Assembly: GCA_963724125.1 (NCBI GenBank)
Contig: CAVRTJ010000011.1
Coordinates: 64,529-128,528 of the forward strand
Source: an uncultured Acidobacteriota bacterium
GTDB taxonomy: Bacteria > Acidobacteriota > UBA4820 > DSQY01
Direction of reading: 5' to 3'
DNA: 64,000 bases
In this document: positions 12,458-57,777 of the stretch, piece by piece
Layout of the letters: each line of letters begins with the position of its first letter
Position numbering within the stretch: position 1 is the stretch's first letter
Translations under genes and position numbers: made by a program
The notes under the pieces: generated by a model
Database searches by the model: none
Seen by the model: the letters and a program-made list of their open reading frames with translations, nothing else
What the model was told of the DNA's origin: nothing

Positions 12458-12459
12458 GC

Positions 12460-38422: not shown

Positions 38423-39340
38423 AGAGGAGGGGAGTAGATTGAGGATTTCGGTTTTGGACTTCGGCAGACGGGAGGCCCTCGAAGGCCTGCCCGCGACCCG
38501 ATCACTGGATTACTCGGTCACTTGATCACCTTCTAATAACAGGGAGGACGGGAGGAAGGGAGTAAAGGCGGATTCAACCGCGGAGGCGCGGAGGACGCAG
38601 AGAAAAGAAGGAGGAAGACGGATCTGGGGTGGAGAACGGCTCGGGACGAGCCGTTGTAGCGGCCGGCGGAAGCCGGCCGAATTCTTGCGCCGCTATTGTG
38701 CAGGCTCCGGCCGTTGCCCGTTCCCCGCGGGCCCTTGGCCCGCGGCGCCTCTTCGCGGGTCGCCATCCGGAAAGCAAGCTTTCCCGGCCGTCGCCCCGCG
38801 CGGGGCACCCCGCGTCGTTGACGCGGCGAGGAACGGGCAACTGGGGGGGTGCAAGGATGTCCCCTAAGAGCGTCCCCCACACACCCTATCGGAAGTGCCG
38901 ACGGGAGTGGACCATCCACTTTGTAGGCCTGCGCCGCCCACATCCTCGACGTACATAGTGAAGTGATCAAGACAAAACACTGCGAATGAACAGCCTGGTC
39001 CACATTTGGGACCGCGATGGCGCGGGTCCAAAATGGCGAAGTAGCGCGAGGGAACGGGGAAGTCCCCTCGCGCATGGGCCTTCCCGCGCAAGGGCAGGAA
39101 GAAGCAGCGTGGAAAGCGAGCATCGAGGAGGGCCGGTCGAGGCCCTCCTTGAAAGGCATCCCCGTGCGGCCTGCGTCGGAACGCAGCTTTCGATGCTCCG
39201 GGTCGAAAGACCTCTATCCGGGCCGGGTCTTCCAAGCAGTCGTCGGCACTGGATTGCTTCAAGCAGAGTGTAGGGTGGGCACTCATGCCTACCGCCACGG
39301 GCTTTGCATCTATGACAACAATGAAGGATAATACTTGAGT
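38423..39340. repeat. About 0.9-kb non-coding, highly structured GC-rich region containing repeat modules (candidate structured RNA or repeat cluster)
   Basis: No credible ORF (track ORFs here are repeat-derived or Arg/Pro-rich). Contains GATCACTGG/TACTCGGTCACTTGATCACC, GCAGAGAAAAGA repeats and the AACGGCTCGGGACGAGCCGTT hairpin. A long-range inverted pair CCGTTGCCCGTTCC(38711)...GGAACGGGCAACTGG(38831) encloses the CCGCGGGCC-ctt-GGCCCGCGG, CCGGAAAGC-aa-GCTTTCCCGG and CCCCGCGCGGGG hairpins. The segment CGACGGGAGTGGACCATCCACTTTGTAGGCCTGCGCCGCCCACATCCTCGACGTACA is also found at 46960-47020. Confidence 0.6.
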
Positions 39341-41844: not shown

Positions 41845-41904
41845 CAGGCGGGTTAGTAAGGAAGAGCGAAAAGGAGAAAGGTGTCGGCCGACGGGGATCG
41901 GCTG

Positions 41905-41975
41905 CTGTAACGGTTCGTCCCAGGCCGCTTCTAAATCCCAAATCCCAATTCCAAAATCGCAAATCTTCCCCCCTC
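41905..41975. repeat. Mosaic intergenic repeat (reverse orientation heptad module)
   Basis: gtaacggttcgtcccaggccgcttcTAAATCCCAAATCCCAATTCCAAAATCGCAAATCttcccccc is the reverse complement of the heptad-plus-hairpin module. Confidence 0.7.
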
Positions 41976-43976: not shown

Positions 43977-44729
43977 ATGTCGCAGAAAAGACTGCTGCTG
44001 CTCAGCAATTCGACGAACCCCGGCGAACCGTACCTCACGTGGCCGCTGGGCCACATCGGGGACTTTCTGGGCGGCGGGATCAAGCGGGTCTTCTTCGTGC
44101 CCTATGCCGGCGTGAGCATCACCTGGGACGACTACACGGCCAGGGTGCGGGAACGCTTCGAATCGTTGGGGATCGAAGTGACGGCGGCCCACGAGACCGG
44201 CCAACCGGCCGAGGCGGCCCGCCGGGCCGAAGCGGTGGTCGTCGGCGGGGGCAATACGTGGAACCTGCTCAAGACCCTCTATGAAACGGAAGTCCTCCAC
44301 GCCGTCAAGACCCGCGTCGAAGAAGGCGCTCCGTATATCGGATGGAGCGCTGGCTCGAACGTGGCGTGCCCCACGATCAAGACGACCAACGACATGCCCA
44401 TCGTCGAGCCGCCTTCGATGACGGCCCTCGGCCTCGTACGCTTCCAGATCAATCCCCACTTCACCGCGGGGCGGCTTGAAGGTCAGCCGGGCGAGACGCG
44501 CGAGGAACGCATCGCCGAGTTCCTGGAAGCAAACCCCGGCATCCCCGTGATCGGCCTGCAAGAGGGCACGGCGCTGCGCGTCGAGGGCCACGGAATCGAG
44601 TTCCTCGGGAGCAAGCCGGCAAAGGTATTCCTCAAAGGTGCCGCACCCCTGGAATGTGGAACGAATGATTCTCTCCAATTTCTTATGACAGTGACAGGCC
44701 CCGGGAAGCGGGCACCCCGGCGTCCCTGA
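43977..44729 (+). CDS. pepE: Dipeptidase E (peptidase S51)
   Basis: MSQKRLLLLSNSTNPGEPYLTW...AEAVVVGGGNTWNLLKTLYE...YIGWSAGSNVACPTIKTTNDMPIVEPPS.... Confidence 0.85.
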   Translation: MSQKRLLLLSNSTNPGEPYLTWPLGHIGDFLGGGIKRVFFVPYAGVSITWDDYTARVRERFESLGIEVTAAHETGQPAEAARRAEAVVVGGGNTWNLLKTLYETEVLHAVKTRVEEGAPYIGWSAGSNVACPTIKTTNDMPIVEPPSMTALGLVRFQINPHFTAGRLEGQPGETREERIAEFLEANPGIPVIGLQEGTALRVEGHGIEFLGSKPAKVFLKGAAPLECGTNDSLQFLMTVTGPGKRAPRRP

Positions 44730-44977
44730 GTCCCGCGGTCTGCGGCTTTCGGCGCAGGCCGTTTCGTGACGGCACGCCCCGCGCCGCCTCCGGCGGTCTT
44801 CATGGTACAATGCCGCCAGATCGAACCCTGTTGTCGCGTTTGGCACATGGGTGGACGAACTCGGAGGTTGGATGGCCGATTGCCCTTTATTGCACCCCGA
44901 AGGCCAGAATGGCAAAATTTCGAAGGACGCCGTAAACGCCTTGCCGCTCGGGCGGTTTCGAAGGCCACGTCCACCTG

Positions 44978-45526
44978 GTGCGATCGGAGCACCAGCTCGC
45001 GAAAGCCCTTCGGGAACTCAAGGGTGAGAGGCTGCTGGGTTTCGATACCGAGACCAAGCCATGCTACAGAAAGGGCGAATTCAACCCCGTCTCCCTGCTC
45101 CAGCTCGCCGGGTCCAGGGACGTTTACCTCTTTCAACTCGGGGAGTCCTGGGGCTGCCGGAAGGGACTCCGCGGACTGCTCTCCAATCCCGCCGTCGTGA
45201 AGAGTGGCGTGGCGATCGATCAGGACGTCAGACAACTGACCGCCCTCGAGCCTTTCGAGCCGAGGGGGTTCCTGGACCTCGCCGAATGGGCGCGCGAGCT
45301 GGGCATCAAGACGGGCGGGCTTCGCGGCCTTGCCGCTCTGCTTCTCGGTTTCCGCATAAGCAAGGGCGCACGAACGAGCAACTGGGCACGCGAGAACCTG
45401 ACGTCCGCCCAGGTCCGCTACGCGGCGACTGATGCGTGGGTGGGACGGGAGACTGCTAGTCTGAGGCCGCGATCGAACGCCTGCGAGAGCACCCGGCCCC
45501 CGCCGCGCCTCACACCTGAATCGTAA
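44978..45526 (+). CDS. 3'-5' exonuclease domain protein (RNase D / DnaQ-like fold), GTG start
   Basis: ...LLGFDTETKP...PVSLLQLA...VYLFQL...VKSGVAIDQDVRQL...YAATDAW are the DEDDy exonuclease motifs. Its 3' end overlaps the convergent chrA ORF. Confidence 0.6.
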   Translation: MRSEHQLAKALRELKGERLLGFDTETKPCYRKGEFNPVSLLQLAGSRDVYLFQLGESWGCRKGLRGLLSNPAVVKSGVAIDQDVRQLTALEPFEPRGFLDLAEWARELGIKTGGLRGLAALLLGFRISKGARTSNWARENLTSAQVRYAATDAWVGRETASLRPRSNACESTRPPPRLTPES

Positions 45527-46725
45527 GTCTTGCACGCGGCCCATACGAGCGACTGCCAACACCAGCCCAGCACTGCGCTACCGAACATTATCCAAATCGG
45601 ACTGATCTTGTAGCGGATTAGCAGGAGGGTGGCCAGAGGGATGATGGTCAGTACCTCCCAGCCGTGAATCCCGCCGAACATGAGGTGGACGGCGGCCGAC
45701 CCCATCAACCCTACCACAGCCGGGCGGACACCGTTCAGAAACGACGCCACGGCCGGGTTGTTCTTCCACCGGTCCAGCGAATAGCCGAACAGAAGGCTCA
45801 ACACGTAGGATGGCAGAAAGACCGCCGTCGAAGCCACCCACGCGCCCACGAGCCCCGCGACCTTGTAGCCCACGAAGGTCGCGGTGATGACGACGGGCCC
45901 GGGCGTGAGCTGCCCCAGGGCCATGCCGTCCGCGAACTGCTTGGCCGTGAGCCAGTGGTAGTGGTTGACGACCTCCTTCTGGATCATGGGGATCATGACG
46001 AAGCCGCCGCCGAAGGTGACGAGCCCCACCCGGACGAAGAAGAGCCCCAGAGCCCCCAGCACGGCCAAAGTGCCCGCCGTGCCCAGCAGCGCGGGCCAGG
46101 CGGTTTTGAAGCCTCCCACGATGGCCGGGATCCTGCAGGAGGGCCCCGCTTCGTCCTCGTCTTTTCCGTTGCCGTTCCGCCTTTCCGGGCAGAGGACCAT
46201 GCCCGCGGCCCCGGAGCCCAGGACGATTTCCACGATCCCGATCTGCGGGACCAGCGAGGCCACGAAAGCGAGGAAGGCCATGATCCAGCCGAAGCGGCAC
46301 CGGATGGACTCGGGCTTGGCCAGCTCCCAGGTCACGGCCAGGATGAGTCCCACGACACCCGCGACCATGCCGTTGAGCATCTGGCTGACCAGCGACAGGT
46401 GGCTGATGGAATCGTAGGCCATGGACAGGCCGATCATGAGGATGAAGGACGGCAGCATGAAGCCCCAGCCAGCGAGCGTGGCGCCCCAGAAACCCTCCAT
46501 CCGGAGGCCCAGGTAGGTCATGGCGTTGAAGGAGATGGCGCCGGGCAGGGACTGGGAGAGCGCGGCCGCGTTGAGAAAGTCGTCTTCCGAGCACGTTTTC
46601 TTTCTCTTCACGAACTCGCTGTGGATAAGCGACAGCACGGCCATGCCGCCGCCGAACCCTATGCAGCCGAGCTTCAGCGACGTGAGAAGGAGCCTCAGTT
46701 TTCGCTTGAACTCCCCCTTCTCCAT
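45418..46725 (-). CDS. chrA: Chromate transporter ChrA (two CHR domains); C-terminal extension possibly artefactual
   Basis: MEKGEFKRKLRLLLTSLKLGCIGFGGGMAVLSLIH...TLAVLGALGLFFVRVGLVTFGGGFVMIPMIQKEVV...LTPGPVVITATFVGYK.... Confidence 0.8.
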   Translation of the reverse strand: MEKGEFKRKLRLLLTSLKLGCIGFGGGMAVLSLIHSEFVKRKKTCSEDDFLNAAALSQSLPGAISFNAMTYLGLRMEGFWGATLAGWGFMLPSFILMIGLSMAYDSISHLSLVSQMLNGMVAGVVGLILAVTWELAKPESIRCRFGWIMAFLAFVASLVPQIGIVEIVLGSGAAGMVLCPERRNGNGKDEDEAGPSCRIPAIVGGFKTAWPALLGTAGTLAVLGALGLFFVRVGLVTFGGGFVMIPMIQKEVVNHYHWLTAKQFADGMALGQLTPGPVVITATFVGYKVAGLVGAWVASTAVFLPSYVLSLLFGYSLDRWKNNPAVASFLNGVRPAVVGLMGSAAVHLMFGGIHGWEVLTIIPLATLLLIRYKISPIWIMFGSAVLGWCWQSLVWAACKTYDSGVRRGGGRVLSQAFDRGLRLAVSRPTHASVAA

Positions 46726-46929
46726 GACGAGGATAAGGTACCCGGAACCGCGCTCTGGTGCAAGCCGCCGCGCGGAAGGGCTAAGAGCTAAGGCCAAAGG
46801 GCTAAAGGCAGGACGGTAGGCGGGGTGCCTTTGTATCGGCCGATTCCTATCAACCCAAGGTCCAGATGAACACGGCCACGCCGGCCCGACGTTTCGCGCA
46901 CCGCGGCCTGGTGCCATCACCTCGTGACG

Positions 46930-47240
46930 CAGCCCCCACCCCTTGAAAGAAGCATCGACGGGAGCGGACCATCCGCTTTGTCGGCCTGTGCCGCCCTCAT
47001 CCTCGACGTACAAAAGTACGACTGCGGTGTGAGCGGCTTGCCCTTCGCGCGCCTGGCCCACTCGCGTCGAGATGCGGCCTTTCGGTCGATCTTCGATCAG
47101 CCGAAAGCCCTCTTGAGGGAAGAACCTTCGAAGGTCAACCACCGACCAGATCCCTTGGTCACTCGATCACTCGATCACTGCGCCAACAGGCGCACAAGAC
47201 ACTAAACCCTGGACACTAAACACTGCCTGCCCGCAGGCAG
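46930..47240. repeat. Mosaic intergenic repeat array (divergent chrA / hypothetical-gene intergenic region)
   Basis: CGACGGGAGCGGACCATCCGCTTTGTCGGCCTGTGCCGCCCTCATCCTCGACGTACA (also at 38897-38955), CCTTCGAAGGTCAACC, GGTCACTCGATCACTCGATCACTG, and ACACTAAACCCTGGACACTAAACACTG. Confidence 0.75.
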
Positions 47241-47429
47241 CCGACTACAACTCTGGTTGGGGGTCAAATGGGTTCGGAGGTATTATATTAGGCGTCTTCA
47301 GGAAACTGCAGAGGAGGGAAGAGCGCAAGAAACCAGCCCTGACACTATTTGTGCTTGACACTGTTCTTGCTTGGTGTGAAAGAACGGGAAAGCAAGTCGA
47401 GGAGCCAGCGAATTCGAGGAAGAGCAATC

Positions 47430-48041
47430 ATGAGAAAACGCCTGTCATCACTCCCGGTAGTCTTCATCCTATGCGTACTAACCGCACCGTGCTTCGGCGC
47501 CGGCCCCGATGTTCGGGATGTCGTGACCAATCCGATCACCGGCGTTGCTCTTGGCGACTTTGGAGGCTGGATCTATAAAAGTTCCAGCGACAAAAAGGAA
47601 TGGGCCAAGCTCATCCCCGGCATTTGTCCGCAGTGGTATCCTGACGGCAAAAGATTTGTTTTCTTTTTACCCATTGGCTACAGTGTTTCCGCGCAACTGT
47701 GGAGCGCTGATGCAACCGGTGAGGCCCGGTATATCCTCAGCAAGTCTGAGTACTTCATTGCGTCTGGAGACAGCCCGGTTGTATCGATGGACTCAAAGGA
47801 AATTGCATATCACTATTCTACGTGTCACCAATCCGGATTCTACGAGGATATCGTAGTGATCGACCTCCGTGAGATGCGCTATCCTTCGATGATCTGCGAT
47901 GCGAAGGTGGTCTATCGGGCCAAGCCGTATTCGTCCATCCGAGGGTTGCGCTGGATCGACAGGTACCGTTTGCAAGTGACCGTGAACGGCAAGACCATCA
48001 TGATCGATACGCACGTCAAAGGTGAGGAACAACGCTCCTAG
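47430..48041 (+). CDS. Hypothetical secreted protein (about 52% GC, atypical for this genome)
   Basis: RBS AGGAAGAG then ATG. Signal peptide MRKRLSSLPVVFILCVLTAPCFGA. No recognisable domains. GC clearly below the 63-65% of flanking genes. Confidence 0.6.
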   Translation: MRKRLSSLPVVFILCVLTAPCFGAGPDVRDVVTNPITGVALGDFGGWIYKSSSDKKEWAKLIPGICPQWYPDGKRFVFFLPIGYSVSAQLWSADATGEARYILSKSEYFIASGDSPVVSMDSKEIAYHYSTCHQSGFYEDIVVIDLREMRYPSMICDAKVVYRAKPYSSIRGLRWIDRYRLQVTVNGKTIMIDTHVKGEEQRS

Positions 48042-48554
48042 TGTGCACGATGGGGTCACGGAGGAAACGGTGCCGGGTCTTGTTTCTTGCACTTGAACCG
48101 TTGTCCACTCCACCGCCCCTTGGCCTGGGGTAGGCGCTTTGCGCTCACGGGAGGCTCCCGCATTTATGCTGGGGAGAGCACGATTACAAACGTGAATGGC
48201 TTGAAAAATTACGCCTATGCATTACGTTTTTTAATACAGGTCATGCTGTGTGTGCGGTGGAAAGTTACAGGGTGGGCGTGGTTGTTTCAACGAGTGGTGG
48301 TTACCAGTAGGCTATGAGACCGAAGCGGAAGAATATGCACGTGTTGTTTTCGAATCGTTAGTTGGACAGTGGGTACGGCTCATGACTTAGAGTGCGCCTG
48401 AAAAAGCCCTGACCCGACATTCAAGAGGGACGAACTAAAGTGCGCTGCTTAATTCACGCCAGGCCAATGAAGGGGAATTGCGACAATCCGTGTACAAATC
48501 GACAGGAAGAAAAGGCTGGAGCAAGAAAGCAGTTGCAATAGGAGAATATAAGCT

Positions 48555-49955
48555 GTGCGGCTCTACCTGATCAATCCTTCCAACCCGCTTGTCGGCATCG
48601 TCAGAGTCCGGGAAAGCCGCTGGAACCGTTACCGGCTGTGGAAGCCGCTCAGCCTGATGGTTCTTGCGGGCCTGACCCCGCCGGAGTGGGAAATCTCGAT
48701 CATCGACGAGAACTGCGGCGTGCGGGACTATCCGTCGATGCCCCTGCCGGACTTGGTGGGCATCACTGCGTTCACCTCGCAGGCGAGCCGGGCCTATGAA
48801 GTGGCCGCTTGCTTCCGGCGGCTTGGGGTGCCCGTCGTCATGGGCGGCATTCACGCAACCATGTGCATGGACGAGGCCATGGCGCGGGTGGATTCGGTGG
48901 TCACGGGGGAGGCCGAGAGGGTCTGGCCGCAGGTGCTGGAGGACGTCAGGCACGGTCGTCTGAAGGATCGGTATGACGGAGGACTAGCCGACACCAGCGA
49001 TATCCCAGCCGCTCGTCATGATTTGTTGCCTACTGAGTATTCCTTTGGATCCATCCAGACCACACGCGGCTGCCCCTTGAACTGCAGCTTCTGCAGTGTG
49101 ACGGCATTCAACGGGGCCAAGTACCGGATGCGACCCATTGAGGACGTTGTTCGCGAATTCCGGCTGATCCGCGAGAAGCTGGTTCTTGTGGTGGACGACA
49201 ACCTCGTGGGCACACGCCCTGAACATCTCGCTCGCGCCAAGGATCTGTTTCGCGCCATGGCGCAGGCGAATCTGCGAAAGAGGTGGGTCGCACAAGCCAC
49301 CATCAACTTTGCCGATGACGAGGAACTCCTGACTTTGGCCGCGAAGGCGGGCTGCGGGGGCGTTTTTATCGGCTTCGAATCCCCGACGCCGGAGGGGCTC
49401 AGGGAAGTGAAAAAGAAGTTCAACCTTCTGAAGGCCCGGGACTTCCGGGCCTCTGTGCGGCGCATCCAACGGCACGGAATCATGGTCGTGGGTTCCTTTA
49501 TGATCGGTTTGGACGTCGATGAACCGGGCATCGGAAAACGCGTCGCCGAGGTAGCCAGCCATTACGGAGTGGACAGTATGAACGCGCTGTTCATGACGCC
49601 CTTGCCCGGCACGCACCTGTGGAACCAGATGAAAGCGGAGGGCCGCATCGCTCTCGATACGTTCCCGGAAGACTGGAAATACTATACGCTGACCTTCCCG
49701 ATAGCCCGATATAAGCATCTGTCCATGGATGCCATCAGCGACGAAATGCTCTCCTGCCACCGAGCTTTCTTCTCCATGCCGCACATTTTACGCAGGGTAT
49801 GCGGCAACCTGTTGGGTCGCCGCCAGCCGCTGATGAGTCTTGTGGGCAATCTCTCGTATAGGAGAAATTTCCAGTTGAATCATGAAGCATACCAGGCCTT
49901 CAGGAGTTATCTGGGCAATAGGCGCGACAGTGAGCCCCGGCAACACAACACGTAA
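48555..49955 (+). CDS. Cobalamin-binding (class B) radical SAM enzyme with C-terminal DUF4070-like region
   Basis: GTG start after AGGAGAA. N-terminal B12-binding-like region, CPLNCSFC radical SAM triad, and ...FMTPLPGTHLWNQMKAEGRIALDTFPEDWKYYTLTFP.... Confidence 0.8.
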   Translation: MRLYLINPSNPLVGIVRVRESRWNRYRLWKPLSLMVLAGLTPPEWEISIIDENCGVRDYPSMPLPDLVGITAFTSQASRAYEVAACFRRLGVPVVMGGIHATMCMDEAMARVDSVVTGEAERVWPQVLEDVRHGRLKDRYDGGLADTSDIPAARHDLLPTEYSFGSIQTTRGCPLNCSFCSVTAFNGAKYRMRPIEDVVREFRLIREKLVLVVDDNLVGTRPEHLARAKDLFRAMAQANLRKRWVAQATINFADDEELLTLAAKAGCGGVFIGFESPTPEGLREVKKKFNLLKARDFRASVRRIQRHGIMVVGSFMIGLDVDEPGIGKRVAEVASHYGVDSMNALFMTPLPGTHLWNQMKAEGRIALDTFPEDWKYYTLTFPIARYKHLSMDAISDEMLSCHRAFFSMPHILRRVCGNLLGRRQPLMSLVGNLSYRRNFQLNHEAYQAFRSYLGNRRDSEPRQHNT

Positions 49956-49989
49956 CTATTGACTGAAATAGCAGGGCCACATCTTGTAA

Positions 49990-50162
49990 TGTCGCAAGCA
50001 ATCGCTCGGTGCGCCTTCGAAGGCCCGGTCCCTACCGTCATCTAAATCCGCAATCCCAAATCCCAATTCCCAAATTCCAGCCCTCGCCGCGTCACTGTCC
50101 AATCCCGAGTGCTTTTCCGCGCCTCACTCTCATTTCCTAATCGCCCGATCACTGGTTACTAT
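49990..50162. repeat. Mosaic intergenic repeat
   Basis: GCGCCTTCGAAGGCCCGG, TCTAAATCCGCAATCCCAAATCCCAATTCCCAAATTCC (reverse heptads), CCCGATCACTGGTTACTATTCACTC. Confidence 0.75.
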
Positions 50163-51398
50163 TCACTCATACCGCAGGGCATCGATGGGGTTTAGGTCGG
50201 CGGCGCGCAGGGCGGGGTAGAGGCCGGAGAGGACGCCGACGGCGATGGAGACGCCGAAGGCGAGCACGACCGAGAATACCGTGACGACGGTGGGCCAGCC
50301 GGCGGAGAGGGCGATGATCTTGGCAATGACCACGCCCATGACGACGCCCGCCGACCCGCCGATGAGGCTGATGGTGGCGGACTCGCTGACGAACTGGAGC
50401 GCGACGTCCCGGCGCTTGGCGCCGACGGCAAGGCGGATTCCGATCTCGCGCGTGCGCTCGAGGACGGATGCGAGCATGATGTTCATGATGCCGATGCCGC
50501 CCACCAGGAGGGAGATGCCGGCGATACAGCCCATGACGATGCTGAACAGACGCTGGGTTTTCCGGCTCTGCTCGAGCAGGGCCTCGGGCACCGTGATGTC
50601 GAAATCTTTCGCGCCGCCGTGGAGGCGGTTCACCAGCGTGCCGATCACTGCGGCGGCGGCCTGGGGACGGACCCCGTTCTTGAGCCGCACAACGATCTCG
50701 TCCACGGGCGATTTGAGGGGGTCCCGGTCGAACTTCCGCATCGCCGTCGTGACGGGGATGTCTACGTCCCGGCCTATGGAACTGATCTGCACGCCCTGGA
50801 AGGAGCCGCCGCCCGCTTCGGGAGCGGCGAGCACGCCGACCACCGTCAGCCAGACGTCGTCGACCTTGAGGTCCTTTCCGACCGCGGGGCCGTAGCCGAA
50901 GAGGTCCCTCCGGACATCCGGACCGATGACGCAGACCTGCGCGTTGTCCTTTTCGTCCAGCTCGTCGAGAAAGCGTCCCTCGGAAAGCTCCAGGCCGAAA
51001 AGCTCCGGCTGGCGCCAGGAGACGCCGAAAACGCTGGCGTCCGTGCTCGTCCCGGCGGCCATGACGCCGTAGGTGTGCACGCGGACGATCGGTGTGACGA
51101 AGGCGACGCCCGGAACGGCCTCCTTCACGGCCTCCCCGTCCCGCGGCGACACGCCCGGCGACTTTTTGCGGATCTCCTGGAGCTCGTCCTTTTTCAGGTC
51201 CAGGTTCCGGATGAGAACGTTCCTGAGACCCAGCCGCTCGATCATGGCCAGCGCCTGTCGCTCGGCGCCCGCGCCTATGGCGAGCATGGCGATCACGGCT
51301 CCGACGCCGAAGAGCATGCCAAGCATGGACAGTGCGGAGCGGAGTTTGTGCGAGAAAAGGTTCCGGAAGGCACTGACGAGGGCGTCTCTCGGGTTCAT
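50163..51398 (-). CDS. ABC-type efflux permease, FtsX/MacB-like with no fused ATPase (DevC-like)
   Basis: 411 aa. N-terminal TM, large periplasmic domain and three C-terminal TM helices (...IGIMNIMLASVLERTREIGIRLAVGAKRRDV...). Confidence 0.8.
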   Translation of the reverse strand: MNPRDALVSAFRNLFSHKLRSALSMLGMLFGVGAVIAMLAIGAGAERQALAMIERLGLRNVLIRNLDLKKDELQEIRKKSPGVSPRDGEAVKEAVPGVAFVTPIVRVHTYGVMAAGTSTDASVFGVSWRQPELFGLELSEGRFLDELDEKDNAQVCVIGPDVRRDLFGYGPAVGKDLKVDDVWLTVVGVLAAPEAGGGSFQGVQISSIGRDVDIPVTTAMRKFDRDPLKSPVDEIVVRLKNGVRPQAAAAVIGTLVNRLHGGAKDFDITVPEALLEQSRKTQRLFSIVMGCIAGISLLVGGIGIMNIMLASVLERTREIGIRLAVGAKRRDVALQFVSESATISLIGGSAGVVMGVVIAKIIALSAGWPTVVTVFSVVLAFGVSIAVGVLSGLYPALRAADLNPIDALRYE

Positions 51399-52672
51399 GA
51401 GGGGCCTCCCGCGAGGGGTCCGGTGCCGCCTTTCGGCGCCTTCTCCTCCTGTGAACGGGCGGTGGGGTCGAGGAGGGCGATGACGTCCCCATCCCTCAGC
51501 CCCTTCGTGACCACGACGCGACCCGGAACGCCTTGTCCCAGCTCGACGGTCACGGGTTGGAACCCTCCGAGAAGGCGCCTTTTGTAGACCACGGGCTTTC
51601 CCCCTTTCTGAAAAACGGCCTGCCGGGGCACGACCAGCGCGCTCTTCATGTCGGCCGTGGTGACCACCGCGTGCAGCCTCTGACCGGGGCTCATGTGAAG
51701 CGTGTCCGTTTTCCGGAAGGACAGGGTGACGCCGAAGTACTGGACCGGAACACCCGGGTACCTGGGCTGCGCAAGCGTATCGACCCTTTCCACGCGAGCC
51801 TTATAGACGGTGCCGCTGTGTGCGTCGATAGTCACCTGCGCGCGCTGCCCCTTGGCAAGCCCGCCCGCGTCGGCTTCGAGAACGAAGACCTTTGCCTGCA
51901 TGGCGCCCGTCTCCGGGATCTCGGCGAGCTTCTGCCCGGGAAAAACCGTGGAACCGATGCGAAGGGGATTGCCCCTCCAGTCCCTGTGGAGCACGACCAC
52001 GCCGTCGTGAGGCGCCTTGACCACCATGGACGCGAGGGCCTTTTTGGCTTCGCCGATTTCCACCTGCGCCTTCTGGGCCTCGATGCGAAAGAGATCGACG
52101 TCCGTCCTGGAAACAGTGTCCTTCGTTTGTCGCACGGCCTCGGCGTGGTCGAGGCGGCTCCTGGCCAACTTCGTGTCGATCTTGGAATTGACGATGTCGA
52201 ACCGGGAGAAGATGTCCGCGTCGGTCGTCTTGAAGGCCTCCGCCTGGGCGAGCCGTTTCTTCGATAGCTTCGCGTCCAGGTCGAGTTCCCGGTTCGAGGC
52301 CTTCATCTGCGCCTCGGCCTTGGCGATCTTCGCGCGGGCGGACGCCGCGTCCGCCTCTCCGTCAAGAAGCTTCTGGCTGAAATCGGCAGGATCGAAGCGG
52401 GCGACGACGGCGCCGGACTCTATCGGCGCGCCGTCCTGGGCTATCCAGGCCAGGGTCATGCGCGCGTGGACTGAAATCGGGGCCGTGACGGGCGTCGCCT
52501 TGACCGCCTTGAGAATTCCGTCGGCGGTGACGGTAAGGTGAAAGGGGCTGGCCTTGACCTTGAACGTCGGAGTGTCCCCGCCGGACATCGCGTGGAAGCC
52601 GTAGATTCCGGCGCCCGCGAGCGCCAGCAGGATTCCGGATCCGGCGAGGAGTCTCAGCCTGGAAAGGGTCAT
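51395..52672 (-). CDS. HlyD-family periplasmic adaptor (membrane fusion protein) 1
   Basis: From the ATG at 52672, which ATGA-overlaps the upstream gene's stop: MTLSRLRLLAGSGILLALAG..., coiled-coil region, then beta-barrel/lipoyl regions. Confidence 0.75.
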   Translation of the reverse strand: MTLSRLRLLAGSGILLALAGAGIYGFHAMSGGDTPTFKVKASPFHLTVTADGILKAVKATPVTAPISVHARMTLAWIAQDGAPIESGAVVARFDPADFSQKLLDGEADAASARAKIAKAEAQMKASNRELDLDAKLSKKRLAQAEAFKTTDADIFSRFDIVNSKIDTKLARSRLDHAEAVRQTKDTVSRTDVDLFRIEAQKAQVEIGEAKKALASMVVKAPHDGVVVLHRDWRGNPLRIGSTVFPGQKLAEIPETGAMQAKVFVLEADAGGLAKGQRAQVTIDAHSGTVYKARVERVDTLAQPRYPGVPVQYFGVTLSFRKTDTLHMSPGQRLHAVVTTADMKSALVVPRQAVFQKGGKPVVYKRRLLGGFQPVTVELGQGVPGRVVVTKGLRDGDVIALLDPTARSQEEKAPKGGTGPLAGGPS

Positions 52673-53940
52673 GGCCGATCCTTTCCAGGCCAGCGTTCGA
52701 GAATCCTGTCCCCCGGGGCCAGGCCCGAGACGATCTGAACGGCCTTTCCGGCCCGGGTCCCGATGACGACCGGGGTCTTCCTCCAGCCGAAGAAGGAACG
52801 GCGCATGACCTCCGGACCTGCAGGGCCCACGACGACCGCCGCGGCGGGAACGGTAAGGACGTTCTTCACCACGCCGGTGTCGATGGTTCCCGTGAAACGC
52901 ATACCGGGCATCATGCGGCGCGTATCGGTCCTGTCGAGGACGATGTCCAGCTTGACCACTTTGAGGGGATTGGCGGGGGACTTTGCCTGAAGGGCCCCCC
53001 ACACGGACCGGATCCGTCCCGTATAGGTGCTGTCGGGCGCGGCGTCGAGCTTCAGGGTGGCCCGCTGGCCGGGCGCGACCTTTCCCGAGTCGACCTCGTC
53101 CACTTCGCCTTCGGCCTTCATGTGTTGCAGGTCGGCCACTTCCAGCACCTTCTCACCGACCCAGCACTGGTCTCCGACCGCCTTCTTATTGCCGTTCCAA
53201 TCGACCTGGTAGATGACCGTCCCGGGTCTCGGCGCCTTCACGTCCATCCGCCGGATGGCGTCTTCTAACTCACGAACGCGCTCGTCAGCTCGCTTTTTCT
53301 TCTCCGCGAGAGAGGCGAGTTCCTCCCGGCCGGCCCGGAGCGACGCGGCAAGCGAGGTCCTAAGGCTCGCGACCCGGGCTTCGGCGGCGCGCAGGTCGAG
53401 CTTCGTCTTCTTGAGGTCGTTGGCGGCCTTGAGTTCCGGGGGCACGTCGAGAAGCATCCGGATCTTCCTGAGGTCGGCCTGGGCTTCCGCCTGCTTGAGC
53501 GTGCTGTCCTCCTTCTGGACCTGGAGTTCGGCCTTCTTCTTCTCCATCTGCTTGGACGCCTCGGCGCTTTCGGCCTGTTTCTCCTTCAGCTCGCGGAGAA
53601 GGTTGCTCGTGTCGAAGACGAGAACCGTTGCGCCTTTCTTGACCACCGAACCTTCGGGGGCCATCCTGGCTATGTTGAAATTCCACATGCGGGCCACGGC
53701 GGGCGGCCCAAGCAGATCTGCGTTCACGGCTTTCAAGGTTCCGGTGACGGCGACCGTGGTGACGAGATCGGCCCTCTTGACCCTGGCGGTTGTGGCTGCC
53801 GAACCGGAGGCACCCGCGGCGACCGCGCCGAGCAGTACGAGAATGACCGCCGCCGCGCCCCAAAAGAGGGGGCCGCGCGTTGCGGCCGCGTACATCGCGT
53901 CCCGAACCCTCCGGGCCGATCGGTCAACGGCGTCAGCCAT
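52669..53940 (-). CDS. HlyD-family periplasmic adaptor 2 (long coiled-coil)
   Basis: 423 aa. TM anchor, extended coiled-coil (...LRELKEKQAESAEASKQMEKKKAELQVQKE...), and C-terminal beta-domains. Confidence 0.75.
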   Translation of the reverse strand: MADAVDRSARRVRDAMYAAATRGPLFWGAAAVILVLLGAVAAGASGSAATTARVKRADLVTTVAVTGTLKAVNADLLGPPAVARMWNFNIARMAPEGSVVKKGATVLVFDTSNLLRELKEKQAESAEASKQMEKKKAELQVQKEDSTLKQAEAQADLRKIRMLLDVPPELKAANDLKKTKLDLRAAEARVASLRTSLAASLRAGREELASLAEKKKRADERVRELEDAIRRMDVKAPRPGTVIYQVDWNGNKKAVGDQCWVGEKVLEVADLQHMKAEGEVDEVDSGKVAPGQRATLKLDAAPDSTYTGRIRSVWGALQAKSPANPLKVVKLDIVLDRTDTRRMMPGMRFTGTIDTGVVKNVLTVPAAAVVVGPAGPEVMRRSFFGWRKTPVVIGTRAGKAVQIVSGLAPGDRILERWPGKDRP

Positions 53941-55186
53941 GATGTGCCTCAGGAGCCTCCAGCCGCTGGCCCGCCTTCAGCCCTGCGAATACGACGCATT
54001 GGAGAGGGGAGCAGGGGCCGATCCTGATTTTCACCGTGCGGCCGCCGGGCAGCCGGGCAACGGGCGGATTCACCGACAGGTCGAGACCGGTACGCGGCGC
54101 GATGAGGACATCCTTCATGCGGCGGGTCAGGACGGACACCCTGACGGACATGCCGGACCGCATCTTGTCCGGATAGCTTCGATCGAGCGCTATCCTCACA
54201 TCAAACGCCCTTCGCGCGGGGCTCTTCGGGATCTCTTTGGCCACCGAAGATACGACCGCGACGTAGCCGTGGATCGCAAGATCGGGAAACGCGTCGAGCG
54301 TGCAGAGCGCCTTCATGCCCGGCTGGATCCTGCCCTGGTCCACGTCCGAGAGCCGGGCGTCCACCAGCATCGTGGAAAGGTCCGGGATACTCATCACGGT
54401 CCAGCCGACGAAGACGGTGTCTCCGACCTGGAGCTTCCGGCCTTCCCAGGGATGTTCGGCGATTTCCACGATGCCGTCCCTCGGGGCGTAAGCCACCATC
54501 TTCTTCAAGGCGTCCTCGGCGGACGCCGCCTCTCTCCGGGCCTTATCGAGGGCCAGTCTCTTGATCTCGAGGTCCGCTCTGCCTGACACTTCAAACGCCT
54601 TGACGTCCTCCCGGGCCTTGTCGTATTCGGTCCGCGTGGCGTCGACAGCGAGCTGCCGGTCCTCGTAGTCCTTTCGCGAAAAGAGTTGCCTGGGAATCGA
54701 GGCGTCGATCCGCGCCTTCTCGTAGGCCGAGCGAGCCTGCTCAAGCGCGAGCTTCAGCTCGTCGCTTCGGGCGGCGTTCAGCGCCTTCTGCTGGGCGAGG
54801 TCGCCGGCGGCCTCGGTGGCTGCGAGTTTCTTCTCTTCGAGGTTGCTCGCCAGCGACGTGTAGTCCAGCTCGAGAATCTTTTCTCCCTTATGGACGCGTG
54901 ACCCGTCTCTTATCATCCACGTGATCTGGGTGCGCCACTGTGGCAAAGAGGGAACGATGATGTCTTCCGACTTTTCGGCCTCGAGCCGTCCGGTGAGCAG
55001 AAACCTGTCGGTGAAAGTCCCCCGGTGGACGGTCAGCGCCTGGTGACCTCCGCGGGCGCATCCGGCGGCGCACAGCAGAACCGCCGCGCTCATGAGCAAG
55101 CGGGAACTGGCTGACAATGGACTCCTGCGGGACGGGCCGGTGGCGGTTTTTCTCATTCTCAACATGAGCGCGTGCGCGGTGATCAC
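53933..55186 (-). CDS. HlyD-family periplasmic adaptor 3 (possible lipoprotein start at about 55093, MSAAVLLCAAGC)
   Basis: ...FTDRFLLTGRLEAEKSEDIIVP..., coiled-coil region, ...GDTVFVGWTVMSIPDLSTMLVDARLSD.... Confidence 0.7.
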   Translation of the reverse strand: MITAHALMLRMRKTATGPSRRSPLSASSRLLMSAAVLLCAAGCARGGHQALTVHRGTFTDRFLLTGRLEAEKSEDIIVPSLPQWRTQITWMIRDGSRVHKGEKILELDYTSLASNLEEKKLAATEAAGDLAQQKALNAARSDELKLALEQARSAYEKARIDASIPRQLFSRKDYEDRQLAVDATRTEYDKAREDVKAFEVSGRADLEIKRLALDKARREAASAEDALKKMVAYAPRDGIVEIAEHPWEGRKLQVGDTVFVGWTVMSIPDLSTMLVDARLSDVDQGRIQPGMKALCTLDAFPDLAIHGYVAVVSSVAKEIPKSPARRAFDVRIALDRSYPDKMRSGMSVRVSVLTRRMKDVLIAPRTGLDLSVNPPVARLPGGRTVKIRIGPCSPLQCVVFAGLKAGQRLEAPEAHHG

Positions 55187-55466
55187 CCCTCCTTCAATTG
55201 TAAGACGTCTGAACCGCCTGTTTGTCTACGATGATACCACACCGCGGCGGGGGGAATCCGATGCGGGGCACCGGACATCGCTAAATGGTTCCGCACGGGA
55301 TCCGGTGGTGTGAAGTCGAGACCGTGTCCTGGAGGAGCTGGGCGACCACGGCCGCTGGATCCGTTGTGCCTCAAGCAGCGCGGAAGCGGAGCCTTCACGG
55401 TCCGGGGGCGGCCCGTCGTCCTGGCAATTCAGGGAGGGTGTCAGCGGACTGTGACCGCGGTTCCCG

Positions 55467-56933
55467 TCAGGCCTCTCCGCCTTCGGTGTCCGCTGGCGCC
55501 ATCCCGTTCAAGCCGCTGTTCCAGAAGCCGTACGTGAAGTAGATGACCAGGCCGATGGCGAGCCAGATGACGAACCTGGCCCAGGTTACCCAAGGCAGGC
55601 TGAACATGAGGTAGCCGCAAAGGGCGATGCCGATGGCCGGGACCACCGGCGCGAAGGGCACCTTGAAGGGCCGTATCAGGTCGCGTACGAGTATACCTCA
55701 GATACGATGACGCCCGCGCACACGATGATGAAGGCGAAAAGCGTCCCGATAGAGCAGAGTTCGGCCACGACTATTGATCGGCGTGAGCGCCGCGGCCGTG
55801 GCCACGATGCAGCCCGTTACCCACGTCGTGACGTAGGGCGTCTGGAATTTCGAATGGACTTTCGACAGGAGCCCGGGCAGCAGTCCGTCTCTCGACATGG
55901 CGAACAGGATCCGCGGCTGGCCCATGAGCAGGACCAGGAGCACGCTGGTGATCCCCGCCAGCGCGCCGACGCTGATCAATGCACTGGCCCATCGCATGTG
56001 CAGGACGTTGAGCACCAGGGCTATGGGGTCGGCCACGCCGAGCTGCGCATAGGGGACCACGCCGGTCATGATGGCCGCCACGGCCATGTAGAGAACGGTG
56101 GCGATCACCAGGGATGCCATGATGCCGATGGGCAAGTCGCGCTGGGGATTACGGGCTTCTTCGGCGGTGGTCGAGACGGCGTCGAAGCCTATGTAGGCGA
56201 GGAATACGATTGCGGCTGCCGTCATGACGCCCTTCCAGCCGAAGGGCGCAAAGGGCACCCAGTTCTCGGGCTTGATGTACCAGGCGGTGAGGAAGATGAA
56301 TATCAAGATCACCGAGACCTTGACTATCACGACGGCCAGGTTGAAACGGCTGCTTTCCTTGATGCCCCGAACGAGAAGGAACGTTATGGCCAGCACGATG
56401 AAGGCGGCGGGCAGGTCGAGGTAGCCCGGGTCGGGGCCGAATGGCGCGGTGATGAACTCGTGAGGCAGATGCAGTCCCATGCCCTTCAGCAAGTTCACGA
56501 GGTAGGCGGACCAGCCTATGGCTACCAGAGAGGCCCCTACCATGTATTCGAGCACCAGGTCCCATCCGATGATCCAGGCGAGGATTTCGCCCAGCGTTGC
56601 GTACCCGTAGGTGTAGGCGCTCCCCGAAACGGGGATCATGGCCGCGAGTTCGGCGTAGCACAGCGCCGAGCAGGCGCAAGCCACCGCCGCCACGGCGAAG
56701 GACAGGATGATGGCCGGGCCCGCATGCTCTGCGGCCTCCACGCCGGGCAGGACGAAGATGCCCACGCCGATGATGCACCCGATGCCGATGGCGGTCAGAT
56801 CCCACGCGGTCAGGACTTTCTTCAGGCGCCGCCCCTCCTGCTGTGTTTCGGCGATCAGGCGACCAAGGGACTTGGTTCTGAATACTCCGTGAGCCATAGC
56901 CTCCCCCGTTTCGATAAGCGATACCGTCTCCAT
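55467..56933 (-). CDS. APC-family amino acid permease (frameshift near 55700)
   Basis: MAHGVFRTKSLGRLIAE...LTAWDLTAIGIGCIIGVGIFVLPG.... The C-terminus continues in the frame of ORF 55467..55661 (...RPFKVPFAPVVPAIGIALCGYLMFSLP...). Confidence 0.8.
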
Positions 56934-57140
56934 TGGCCGTTCAGAAGATGACCATTATCCCTCAAATGGCCTTCAAAGCCAAGCTCCGCCTGAGGGGCGG
57001 AGCGACGCGCTTCCGCAGGCCCGACGCACCTGCCTGTGCGCAGAGGGGCCTGGGACGAGCGGCGTTTCCATCCTTCGTCCCGGGTTCGCGCCTCAGACTA
57101 TTTCGGTGGATCACTTCGGGCGGGGGCCCGGCCTTCGGTA

Positions 57141-57639: not shown

Positions 57640-57777
57640 ATGCCCGATTGGGCGGATTAATGAAAGGGAAGGACAATTTGGAAGTCGGGATTGGGATTTC
57701 GGATTTAAAGGACCGCCGCGACCGCGCACTCTCGAAGCCGCGCACTTCGAAGGCCTACTCCCGCACTCGATCACTGT
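57640..57777. repeat. Mosaic intergenic repeat
   Basis: aaggacaatttgg-(AAGTCGG/GATTGGG/ATTTCGG)ATTTAAA...CTCTCGAAGCCGCGCACTTCGAAGGCC...CACTCGATCACTG has the same module order as 36167-36538. Confidence 0.75.

What the first reader, a model, noticed from the sequence alone, without database searches (positions are those of the whole stretch)
47250..50162. Low-GC islet (secreted hypothetical protein plus B12-radical SAM/DUF4070 enzyme) bounded by repeat arrays, inserted where an efflux ATPase gene would be expected
GC drops from about 64% to 48-52% across 47250-48555 (intergenic DNA and the 204-aa secreted hypothetical), then a class-B radical SAM enzyme follows. Both ends (46930-47240 and 49990-50162) are mosaic repeats. 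Immediately to the right is a DevC/MacB-like permease with three HlyD adaptors but no ATPase gene. In DevBCA or MacAB systems the ATPase normally follows or is fused. So the islet may have displaced the ATPase, or may represent horizontally acquired tailoring genes, for example a C-methyltransferase acting on a lipid or metabolite.
Basis: partly seen in the sequence, partly recalled or inferred. Interest (0 to 1): 0.6.

Follow-up and report, generated by a model that had tools for sequence, protein, structure and literature searches.

The report
Decayed integron cassette carrying radical SAM gene
The low-GC patch is foreign DNA whose radical SAM gene is a worn-down copy of a roughly 1.6-kb integron gene cassette shared almost unchanged by bacteria of more than ten phyla, and it did not replace a transporter ATPase gene.

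Summary
The GC dip is real: 47250-48555 is 51.7% GC against 62.2% for the window. The gene calls are right, except that no DUF4070 domain is detectable. The flanking "repeat arrays" belong to repeat families found in many intergenic gaps of this window, so they do not mark the islet.

The ATPase-displacement idea is refuted. Three relatives carry the same four-gene operon (three adaptors plus a MacB-type permease) with no ATPase next to it. A close relative (L001) keeps the radical SAM (rSAM) gene but has deleted the whole operon.

The B12-dependent rSAM gene belongs to a very tight clade, 75-85% amino-acid identity across more than ten phyla. Synonymous divergence is unsaturated (dS 0.04-1.0) and the gene keeps 53-66% GC in flanking DNA of 36-67% GC. 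Elsewhere it is a canonical integron cassette. The 5' end starts at G|TTAGGCC, joined to at least 13 different upstream sequences. An 86-nt attC follows the gene, and integron-integrase remnants lie beside it.

The window copy keeps the cassette leader (48461-48554), but its core site is mutated (GCCAGGC) and its attC is lost. The coding sequence is intact and under purifying selection.

The neighbouring 203-aa secreted protein is a rare PD40-type partial beta-propeller. One homolog sits in a cassette-like array. The enzyme's substrate is unknown.

The parts
46933..47179 (.). Host-type dispersed intergenic repeats upstream of chrA. One copy of an 80-nt family lies at 46933-47012. A copy of a 56-nt family, with a TCACTCGA octamer array, lies at 47124-47179.
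   Evidence: families D7 and D2, with copies at 38876, 36485 and 38475; 10 octamer-array matches at 5 sites, against 1.2 expected.
47206..47429 (.). Low-GC non-coding DNA where the foreign-looking segment begins.
   Evidence: GC falls to about 52-54% from about 62-64%.
47430..48041 (+). Gene for a 203-aa secreted protein that is a PD40-type partial beta-propeller. The family is rare.
   Evidence: Only 14 homologs (30-47% identity) among 5.8 billion proteins, three of them with PF07676. The motif KLIPGxCPQW.PDGK is conserved. The AF2 model has pLDDT 84 and is all-beta, and Foldseek matches propeller domains. GC3 is 64%. Homolog P0255 lies in a four-ORF array with attC-like hairpins between the ORFs.
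48042..48182 (.). Spacer present in the window but not in the close relative L001. The left breakpoint of shared DNA is at 48183.
48183..48460 (.). Non-coding segment shared with L001 at about 87-93% identity. No convincing ORF or RNA family.
   Evidence: Rfam found nothing. The small ORF here shows mostly non-synonymous differences.
48458..48464 (+). Degenerate integron core site. It reads GCCAGGC where intact cassettes read GTTAGGC (GTTRRRY).
48461..48554 (+). Cassette 5' leader (AGGCCAATGAAGGGGAATTGCGACAATCC...), homologous to the 5' end of the rSAM cassette family. It includes the ribosome-binding site.
   Evidence: 3 mismatches in 29 nt to the motif. The motif occurs in 21 of 81 loci at -90 to -98 and in 0 of 240 control stretches. 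27 metagenome loci carry it.
48555..49955 (+). Gene for a cobalamin-dependent (class B) radical SAM enzyme, 466 aa, with a GTG start and the cluster motif C173-x3-C177-x2-C180.
   Evidence: Homology to the cassette family runs 48544-49932 at 83-84% nucleotide identity. dN/dS against L001 is 0.27.
49933..50162 (.). Replaced 3' end of the cassette. The last 7 codons and the downstream DNA are unrelated to the cassette, and no attC is present. The stretch contains a host heptamer array (50004-50079) and an octamer unit (50140-50154).
50163..51398 (-). MacB-type permease (MacB_PCD plus FtsX), the last gene of an ancestral operon that has no ATPase gene.
51395..55186 (-). Three consecutive HlyD/MacA-type periplasmic adaptor genes at 53933-55186, 52669-53940 and 51395-52672, with overlapping start and stop codons.
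   Evidence: The same three-adaptor order occurs in L088-L090.
50203..55377 (.). Segment absent from the close relative L001. It covers the permease and the three adaptors. L001 keeps about 40 nt of the permease 3' end, so the difference is a deletion in L001.

Best explanation
The islet is two pieces of acquired DNA lying at a rearrangement-prone intergenic junction of what is probably an Acidobacteriota chromosome. It sits beside an operon of three adaptors plus a MacB-type permease, which is ancestral and never had an ATPase gene at this position.

The right-hand piece is a decayed integron gene cassette.
- Shown: in its intact form the unit is about 1.6 kb. It consists of TTAGGCC, a 97-nt leader, the 463-aa B12-dependent radical SAM gene, a 48-nt spacer and an 86-nt attC. 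It is found behind many different upstream sequences, always joined at G|TT, and sometimes next to integron-integrase remnants.
- Shown: it has spread recently among more than ten bacterial phyla, and into genome bins labelled archaeal, from mostly sediment and groundwater samples.
- Inferred: an ancestor of this genome and of L001 acquired the cassette, by IntI-type site-specific recombination or inside a larger element carrying it.
- Shown: the core site then mutated (GTT to GCC), and the attC and the last codons were replaced, so the copy can no longer be excised by an integrase.
- Shown: the coding sequence stayed intact and is under purifying selection.

How the enzyme probably works:
- Shown: it has the CxxxCxxC motif and an N-terminal cobalamin-binding domain.
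- Inferred: it binds a [4Fe-4S] cluster and cleaves SAM, and most likely methylates an unactivated carbon or phosphorus centre.
- Inferred: because it travels alone, without partner genes, it probably confers a self-contained trait on a universal or environmental substrate. Modification of a toxic compound or of a conserved cellular target is one possibility.

The left-hand piece is the low-GC segment with the 203-aa secreted PD40-type protein. It is probably a second acquired cassette-type gene, but that is less certain.
For: Cross-phylum spread:
- The 120 best database homologs are 78-85% identical and carry names from six phyla.
- 380 stretches in species-representative genomes encode a relative. 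The best 80 (75-84% identity) include Desulfobacterales, Bacteroidales, Terriglobia, Planctomycetota, Verrucomicrobiia, Nitrospiraceae, Sumerlaeia, Actinomycetes and two bins labelled archaeal.
- Nucleotide identity to Terriglobia and Bacteroidota-like loci is 83-84%.
- dS has a median of 0.62 and falls to 0.04 between bins labelled Deltaproteobacteria and Acidobacteria. dN/dS is about 0.18.
- On long contigs (38 kb up to a complete chromosome), dS between different phyla is 0.26-1.05.
- Gene GC stays at 53-66% while flanking GC ranges from 36 to 67%.
- There is no conserved neighbouring gene.

Cassette anatomy:
- In low-dS pairs, homology covers only the coding sequence plus a short flank on each side, typically about 30-140 nt upstream (up to about 480 in three pairs) and at most 131 nt downstream. 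It then stops abruptly.
- The leader motif occurs in 21 of 81 loci and in 0 of 240 controls.
- In 27 metagenome loci the motif is preceded by GTT in 21 and ATT in 4, with at least 13 unrelated upstream contexts.
- Canonical attC sites (GCCTAAC...GTTAGGC, -44 to -49 kcal/mol) follow the gene in L008 and L062, and L009 and L053 carry near-identical copies.
- Upstream attC sites occur in L022 and L051, and attC-like hairpins in L102 and L109.
- Integrase remnants beside the cassette score best against the integron-integrase model. In L009 they score 123 and 84 bits, against 68-69 for XerC/XerD. In L116 the remnant scores 143.7 bits, against 87 for XerC.

Window copy:
- The leader is at 48461, and the core site reads GCCAGGC.
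- Homology ends at 49932, and the downstream alignment scores no better than shuffled sequence.
- The nearest non-self copies are the Desulfobacterales cassettes, at dS about 0.4.

Operon:
- Searches show the ATPase-less module in relatives.
- Searches show its deletion in L001.
Against: - The window has no attC and no integrase. Its cassette origin therefore rests on homology of the leader and gene to intact cassettes elsewhere.
- Only about a quarter of the genome loci keep the recognisable leader, and about a tenth keep attC sequence. Other transfer routes may also operate.
- The recombinase fragment beside the L001 copy scores slightly better as XerC/XerD than as IntI.
- A cassette origin for the 203-aa gene rests on one homolog in one array (L092).
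- The taxonomic labels of genome bins were not verified independently.
- The AF2 model of the enzyme is poor (pLDDT 50), so nothing about the substrate could be inferred.
Confidence: 0.8

Rival explanations
1. One reading: the islet inserted where the ATPase gene of a DevBCA- or MacAB-type exporter used to be and displaced it.
For: There is no ABC ATPase motif anywhere in the 64 kb. The islet abuts the 3' end of the permease gene.
Against: The same module of three adaptors plus permease lacks an adjacent ATPase in L088, L089 and L090, which also lack the islet. In L089 the permease is followed directly by the cytochrome c and UbiA genes that also lie nearby in the window. The permease start overlaps the adaptor stop, so there is no fused domain.
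Confidence: 0.03
2. Functional coupling: the rSAM enzyme tailors a lipid, peptide or metabolite that the adjacent adaptor and permease system exports.
For: The genes are adjacent. Class B rSAM enzymes often tailor natural products (established knowledge). NCBIfam gives weak hits to RiPP and hopanoid enzymes.
Against: The two are transcribed convergently. L001 keeps the rSAM gene but has deleted the exporter. Relatives keep the exporter without the rSAM gene. Across about 80 loci no exporter, precursor or other partner recurs. All named families score far below their cut-offs.
Confidence: 0.04
3. The rSAM gene is an old, vertically inherited and extremely constrained housekeeping gene. Its low dS would then reflect selection on codons or mRNA rather than recent transfer.
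For: Amino-acid identity is very high across phyla. GC3 is uniformly high.
Against: Non-coding leader and attC sequences are equally conserved, for example 96.8% over positions -75 to +131 between bins labelled Deltaproteobacteria and Acidobacteria. Pattern scanning found a relative in only 380 stretches among 185,579 species-representative genomes. Nearest neighbours by dS cross phyla. Flanking genes differ everywhere. A dN/dS of about 0.18 is not unusually low.
Confidence: 0.03
4. The whole patch (about 47200-50000) arrived as part of a larger integrative element, such as a phage or ICE-like island using a Xer-type or phage-type recombinase. The rSAM cassette would have been a passenger rather than being inserted directly by an integron integrase in this genome.
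For: L001 has a tyrosine-recombinase C-terminal fragment 500 bp upstream that scores slightly better as XerC/XerD (83 bits) than as IntI (71 bits). RHS/YD toxin genes lie next to it. The window has no attC. The DNA to the left of 48183 differs between the window and L001.
Against: There is no integrase, tRNA gene or terminal direct repeat in the window. The cassette leader begins at the position expected for a cassette boundary. This rival concerns only the last step of delivery and is compatible with the cassette identity of the gene.
Confidence: 0.12

Closest known systems
Integron gene cassettes and attC clusters lacking an integrase (CALIN), as defined in the integron literature (my own knowledge of it)
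   Same: The family is a single-ORF unit. Its 5' end starts at the TT of GTTRRRY. At the 3' end is an imperfect-palindrome attC with RYYYAAC and GTTRRRY ends. It is joined to many unrelated upstream sequences and lies next to IntI-like remnants.
   Different: The window copy has a mutated core site, no attC and no integrase, so it is a fossil rather than a mobile cassette. The 97-nt leader is long for a cassette. The integrase remnants lie on the same strand as the cassette. I recall this 'inverted' arrangement for some environmental integrons, but I did not test it.
Cobalamin-dependent (class B) radical SAM enzymes, such as the MCR glutamine C-methyltransferase QCMT (PDB 9CCB), TsrM, HpnJ, HpnR and BchE
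   Same: It has an N-terminal B12-binding Rossmann domain and a radical SAM core with CxxxCxxC. The best solved relative is QCMT, at E = 1e-16 over the core only (identified through PMC12931638).
   Different: It scores 60-90 bits against family cut-offs of 360-650 bits, so it belongs to no named family. No DUF4070 is detected. At 50% clustering the clade collapses to a single full-length representative (63% identical to the query). The next full-length relatives are at most 47% identical.
MacAB-TolC, DevBCA and YknXYZ tripartite ABC exporters
   Same: The permease has MacB_PCD plus FtsX domains, and the adaptors are of the HlyD/MacA type.
   Different: There are three tandem adaptor genes and no ATPase gene in the operon. 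This arrangement is conserved in relatives. The ATPase must be encoded elsewhere, or is not needed.
Cross-domain cassette transfer by integrons in Archaea (reported in the literature; recalled from memory, not checked here)
   Same: Near-identical cassette genes occur in bins labelled Halobacteriota or 'archaeon' and in Planctomycetota, at dS 0.17-0.25.
   Different: The archaeal assignment of those bins was not verified. No archaeal IntI was examined.

Membership tests
Integron gene cassette | The 5' boundary lies at the crossover point G|TTRRRY, and the same cassette end is joined to unrelated upstream DNA. | tested here: met
   Met for the family: GTT precedes AGGCC in 21 of 27 metagenome loci, with at least 13 different contexts, and several genome loci agree. 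In the window the site reads GCCAGGC and is degenerate.
Integron gene cassette | A 3' attC site, which is an imperfect palindrome with RYYYAAC (R'') and GTTRRRY (R') ends. | tested here: not met
   Not met in the window. No candidate follows the gene, and the downstream alignment to intact cassettes scores no better than shuffles. Met elsewhere in the family: L008 and L062 have an 86-nt attC at -44 to -49 kcal/mol, and L009 and L053 carry near-identical copies.
Integron gene cassette | Association with an integron integrase (IntI). | tested here: inconclusive
C-terminal remnants that score best against TIGR02249 lie beside the cassette in L009 and L116, with an IntI1-like match in L115. All are fragments below the full-length cut-off. 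The L001 fragment scores better as XerC/XerD.
Class B (cobalamin-dependent) radical SAM enzyme | A radical SAM core with the CxxxCxxC cluster motif. | tested here: met
   PF04055 at 58.3 bits, cut-off 29.5. The motif is CPLNCSFC, at window position 49071. C173, C177 and C180 are invariant in 34 homologs.
Class B (cobalamin-dependent) radical SAM enzyme | An N-terminal cobalamin-binding domain. | tested here: met
   PF02310 at 32.4 bits, cut-off 32.1, which is marginal. Cobalamin binding itself cannot be tested here.
HpnJ, HpnR, BchE, PhpK and other named B12-rSAM families | A score above the NCBIfam curated cut-off. | tested here: not met
   Best scores are HpnJ 88.9 against 577.6, HpnR 71 against 650, BchE 68 against 481, and PhpK 79 against 600.
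   No hit even at E<=10.
MacB/DevC-type ABC exporter | A permease with a MacB periplasmic core domain and an FtsX domain, plus a membrane-fusion adaptor. | tested here: met
   PF12704 at 136.8 bits and PF02687 at 77.7 bits. The three adaptors hit HlyD_3, HlyD_D23 and RND_mfp models.
MacB/DevC-type ABC exporter | A cognate ATPase, either fused or encoded in the operon. | tested here: not met
   No ABC signature, and only one unrelated Walker A motif, in the 64 kb. No ATPase next to the module in L088-L090. The rest of the genome could not be searched.

The most novel reading that the evidence does not exclude
The rSAM cassette encodes a self-sufficient adaptive trait that has recently swept through anaerobic bacteria of many phyla, and possibly archaea, by way of integrons. 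The trait could be enzymatic inactivation of a natural toxin or antibiotic, protective modification of a conserved cellular target, or a one-gene anti-phage function. It would be the first cobalamin-dependent radical SAM enzyme known to act as a mobile resistance or defence determinant. It would also be one of the most widely disseminated non-clinical integron cassettes.
Probability: 0.2. Interest if true: 0.8.

Novelty: new member of a known kind. Interest (0 to 1): 0.55.

Why it matters
Most environmental integron cassettes encode proteins of unknown function, and their ecological reach is rarely measurable. This gene gives a concrete case. A single 1.6-kb cassette carries an intact cobalamin-dependent radical SAM enzyme. 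It is found at 75-85% amino-acid identity in at least 380 stretches of species-representative genomes, across more than ten phyla. Its synonymous divergence is far below what those phyla show. That makes its selective value directly testable, for example by expressing the cassette in an anaerobe and challenging it. It also offers a marker for recent gene flow in sediment and groundwater communities.

For this window specifically, the result corrects the annotation logic. The ATPase-less operon of three adaptors plus permease is an ancestral and conserved arrangement, not a damaged one.

Tried and rejected
- Exact-sequence look-up of the rSAM protein to recover the source contig failed. The 203-aa protein returned only a 1-kb Logan contig.
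- Rfam found no RNA family in 46500-50500. Promoter and terminator scans were at chance level.
- PADLOC gave only a 19-bit hit to a candidate family, which is not evidence of a defence role.
- The AF2 model of the rSAM enzyme was too poor (pLDDT 50) to use for fold search.
- Sequenced plasmids and phages hold only relatives below 60% identity, at best about 35%. One IMG/VR contig has a 74% relative, which I did not pursue.
- My strict and relaxed attC pattern scans have low sensitivity. They recovered 1 of 4 hairpins in the positive control L092. Their negative result in the window is therefore weak by itself.
- I considered that inverted copies of the heptamer repeat (50004-50079 and 57675-57709) mediated the inversion of the exporter block relative to L089. 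The right-hand copy lies beyond the cytochrome c gene, not at the breakpoint, so I dropped this idea.
- A small ORF in 48250-48390 shared with L001 shows mostly non-synonymous changes and was rejected as a gene.
- A literature search for integron cassettes encoding radical SAM enzymes found nothing relevant.
Full report
OBSERVATION

The window averages 62.2% GC (sd 3.9 for 300-nt windows). The stretch 47250-48555 is 51.7% GC and is the longest low-GC run in the 64 kb.

- chrA, about 45418-46731, minus strand.
- A signal-peptide ORF at 47430-48041. It is 203 aa, and the source annotation also aa.
- A 513-nt gap.
- A B12-binding plus Radical_SAM protein at 48555-49955.
- A MacB_PCD/FtsX permease at 50163-51398, minus strand.
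- Three HlyD-type adaptors, 51395-55186, minus strand.

Three details do not hold.
- The rSAM gene is only mildly low in GC (59.6%, GC3 75%). The small ORF has GC3 of 64%, and the correctly framed neighbouring genes have 77-89%.
- DUF4070 is not detectable, even at E<=10.
- The repeats at both ends belong to dispersed families. GGGATTT heptamer arrays occur at seven intergenic sites and TCACTCGA octamer arrays at five, both far above shuffle expectation. Longer composite copies also occur elsewhere. These repeats decorate many intergenic gaps of this genome and do not delimit the islet.

THE ATPASE QUESTION

No ABC signature occurs in any frame of the window. The only Walker A motif lies 35 kb away. 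More decisive evidence comes from relatives found with the permease.
- Loci L088, L089 and L090 (80%, 75% and 67% permease identity) all carry the same four-gene module: three adaptors followed by the permease, with overlapping start and stop codons.
- L089 and L090 have no ATPase within 7 kb on either side. L088 has none upstream or in the 365 nt held after the permease. None has the rSAM gene beside the permease.
- L089 is syntenic with the window on both sides: TPM-domain genes on one side, and cytochrome c, UbiA, DUF92 and LptD on the other. There the permease is followed directly by cytochrome c.
- Relative to L089, the block from the amino-acid permease through the adaptors to the MacB-type permease is inverted in the window. 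In addition, 43977-50162 is extra DNA. It carries an S51 peptidase, an exonuclease, chrA, the 203-aa gene and the rSAM gene.

A much closer relative, L001, is 93-96% identical in nucleotides. It keeps the rSAM gene with its flanks (window 48183-50202) and joins them directly to window 55378. It retains about 40 nt of the permease 3' end. So L001 has deleted the permease and all three adaptors.

The ATPase-less operon is therefore ancestral, conserved and dispensable. Nothing was displaced by the islet.

THE RADICAL SAM GENE

It belongs to no named family. HpnJ, HpnR, BchE, PhpK and the others score 60-90 bits against cut-offs of 360-650 bits. The nearest solved structure is the MCR glutamine C-methyltransferase QCMT (9CCB), matched over the core only.

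Its distribution is unusual.
- The 120 best database hits are 78-85% identical and are named from Sumerlaeia, Calditrichia, Acidobacteriia, Deltaproteobacteria, Verrucomicrobiia and Nitrospirota.
- In species-representative genomes, 380 stretches encode a relative. The best 80 (75-84% identity) also come from Bacteroidales, Planctomycetota, Nitrospinaceae, Actinomycetes, Hydrogenedentota and two bins labelled archaeal.
- At 50% clustering the clade collapses to a single full-length representative, 63% identical to the query. The next full-length relatives are at most 47% identical.
- Nucleotide identity to Terriglobia and Bacteroidota-like loci is 83-84%.
- Across 75 copies, median dS is 0.62 and dN/dS is about 0.18. 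Cross-phylum pairs go as low as dS 0.04.
- Among copies on long contigs (38 kb up to a complete chromosome) from different phyla, dS is 0.26-1.05.
- The gene keeps 53-66% GC while its flanks range from 36 to 67%.
- No neighbouring gene is conserved. The commonest neighbour, in 11 loci, is another B12-rSAM paralog.

Together this is the signature of recent and repeated horizontal transfer of a single gene.

THE VEHICLE

In low-dS pairs, homology covers the coding sequence plus a short flank on each side. The upstream flank is typically about 30-140 nt (up to about 480 nt in three pairs), and the downstream flank is at most 131 nt. Homology then ends abruptly.

The upstream end.
- It is a conserved leader that begins AGGCCAATGAATAGGAATTACGACAATCC, about 97 nt before the start codon.
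- It is present in 21 of 81 loci, including the window and L001. It is absent from 240 control stretches.
- An exact-pattern scan of metagenomes returned 27 more loci. The three bases before the motif are GTT in 21 and ATT in 4. Further upstream there are at least 13 unrelated sequences.
- GTTAGGC is the integron core site GTTRRRY. A constant end joined to many partners at G|TT is what integrase-mediated cassette insertion produces (established knowledge of integrons).

The downstream end.
- L008 and L062 carry an 86-nt imperfect palindrome 48 nt after the stop codon. It runs from GCCTAAC to GTTAGGC and folds at -44 to -49 kcal/mol. This is a textbook attC. L009 and L053 carry near-identical copies with slightly altered core sites.
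- Truncated versions occur in several more loci.
- Upstream attC sites, belonging to a preceding cassette, are visible in L022 and L051. L102 and L109 show attC-like hairpins in the same position.

The integrase.
- Remnants lie just upstream on the same strand in L009, L115 and L116.
- They score best against the integron-integrase model TIGR02249. In L009 the scores are 123 and 84 bits, against 68-69 for XerC/XerD. In L116 an 81-aa fragment scores 143.7 bits, against 87 for XerC.

I conclude that the gene circulates as an integron cassette of about 1.6 kb.

THE WINDOW COPY

- The leader is present at 48461-48554, with 3 mismatches in the 29-nt motif.
- The core site reads GCCAGGC at 48458-48464.
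- Homology to intact cassettes stops at 49932, which is 23 nt before the window's stop codon.
- The last seven codons and the downstream DNA are unrelated to the cassette and contain host-type repeats.
- No attC can be found.
- There is no integrase or tRNA gene in the window.
- The coding sequence is intact and keeps every residue that is invariant in 34 homologs. It differs from the L001 copy at dS 0.09 and dN/dS 0.27.
- Its nearest non-self relatives are the Desulfobacterales copies that still have cassette ends, at dS about 0.4.

The copy is therefore an immobilised cassette. It was acquired before the window and L001 lineages split, and the gene is probably still functional.

THE SMALL ORF

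- The 203-aa protein has a signal peptide and only 14 homologs among 5.8 billion proteins, at 30-47% identity. Three of them carry a PD40 repeat hit.
- The alignment shows a conserved KLIPGxCPQW.PDGK...SPVVS pattern.
- The AF2 model is confident (pLDDT 84) and all-beta. It matches propeller domains of S9 peptidases, sortilin and similar proteins.
- One homolog, P0255, sits in a row of four small same-strand ORFs. They are separated by 72-101-nt gaps that fold as attC-like hairpins with CTAAC and GTTAG ends (L092).
- This makes a cassette origin plausible for the window gene too. However, no attC-like structure is recognisable between 48042 and 48460.
- The stretch left of 48183 differs completely in L001. 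There it carries RHS/YD-type genes and a tyrosine-recombinase C-terminal fragment that scores slightly better as XerC/XerD than as IntI.

I give the cassette reading of this gene about even odds.

MECHANISM AND FUNCTION

Shown:
- The CxxxCxxC motif.
- The cobalamin-binding domain, which is marginal against the Pfam cut-off.
- An intact reading frame.
- Purifying selection.
- Carriage as a solitary gene.

Inferred:
- Reductive cleavage of SAM at a [4Fe-4S] cluster, with cobalamin-dependent chemistry. Methylation of an unactivated centre is the most likely reaction.
- A trait that needs no dedicated partner genes and is useful in very different hosts.
- Most of the sample names seen point to sediment and groundwater, which fits an oxygen-sensitive, B12-requiring enzyme. 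I did not survey this systematically.

The substrate is unknown. A resistance or defence role is a hypothesis only. PADLOC gave no meaningful hit.

VERDICT

- The horizontal-transfer idea is right and can now be given a mechanism.
- The ATPase-displacement idea and the exporter-tailoring idea are not supported.
- The locus itself is a fossil of a known kind of element.
- The cassette family it reveals is, as far as the held literature shows, undescribed. It is unusually widespread for a non-clinical cassette.

Noticed in passing
window 50163-55186; L088, L089, L090: An operon of three tandem HlyD/MacA-type adaptor genes plus one MacB_PCD/FtsX permease, with no ATPase gene, is conserved across relatives down to 67% permease identity. 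Named relatives are Acidobacteria, Thermoanaerobaculia and Polarisedimenticolaceae. It is cleanly deleted in the close relative L001. How a MacB-type permease with three adaptors is energised is unexplained.
   Followed up: partly
window 23885-24049 and 60306-60470; also 36173-36363, 38475-38680, 38876-38955, 41878-41971, 57675-57775: A family of composite intergenic repeats. They combine GGGATTT heptamer arrays, TCACTCGA octamer arrays and GC-rich hairpins such as AACGGCTCGGGACGAGCCGTT. One pair of 165-nt copies is 90% complementary in inverted orientation, 36 kb apart. These could be REP- or MITE-like elements of this genome.
   Followed up: partly
window 55687-55773 (amino-acid permease gene, 55698-56933, minus strand): Relative to L001, the permease gene has three separate 1-nt insertions within about 90 nt. 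This gives a frameshifted stretch with a stop codon, so the ORF is 411 aa instead of 487 aa, and the frame is restored afterwards. It is either a real pseudogene or a cluster of sequencing or assembly errors.
   Followed up: partly
window 43977-57140 compared with L089: The block from the amino-acid permease through the adaptors to the MacB-type permease is inverted relative to the syntenic relative L089 (GCA_027388625.1). About 6.2 kb of extra genes (S51 peptidase, 3'-5' exonuclease, chrA, the 203-aa gene and the rSAM gene) lie at one inversion boundary.
   Followed up: partly
L037 440-895 and 2420-2704; L025 5212-5664: In two Thermodesulfobacteriota-type loci the rSAM gene is flanked on both sides by direct copies (90% identical, about 230-290 nt) of another sequence. 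This suggests insertion into, or recombination between, a repeated host element. Not explained.
   Followed up: no
L024 5840-5925: A CCCTGATTT-type short tandem array lies immediately upstream of the cassette boundary in a Deltaproteobacteria bin. It resembles the heptamer arrays next to the window copy.
   Followed up: no
L116 about 1700-2000; L009 4726-5850: The integron-integrase genes beside the rSAM cassette are truncated to their C-terminal 55-90 residues. In L116 an unrelated ORF runs up to the remnant. In L009 one remnant shares a 374-aa ORF with a region that weakly matches an MntA-type antitoxin model. The integrases therefore seem to have been disrupted after cassette capture.
   Followed up: no
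window 11792-13612, minus strand: A second, unrelated radical SAM gene (PF04055, 221-aa ORF, possibly truncated) lies next to a 295-aa ORF that has a Walker A motif and no Pfam hit. Upstream of them is a C25 peptidase gene.
   Followed up: no
L039 and L069: One genome bin (Meg19_1012_Bin_441) carries two copies of the rSAM gene on different contigs, with different nearest relatives. This is consistent with independent acquisitions.
   Followed up: no
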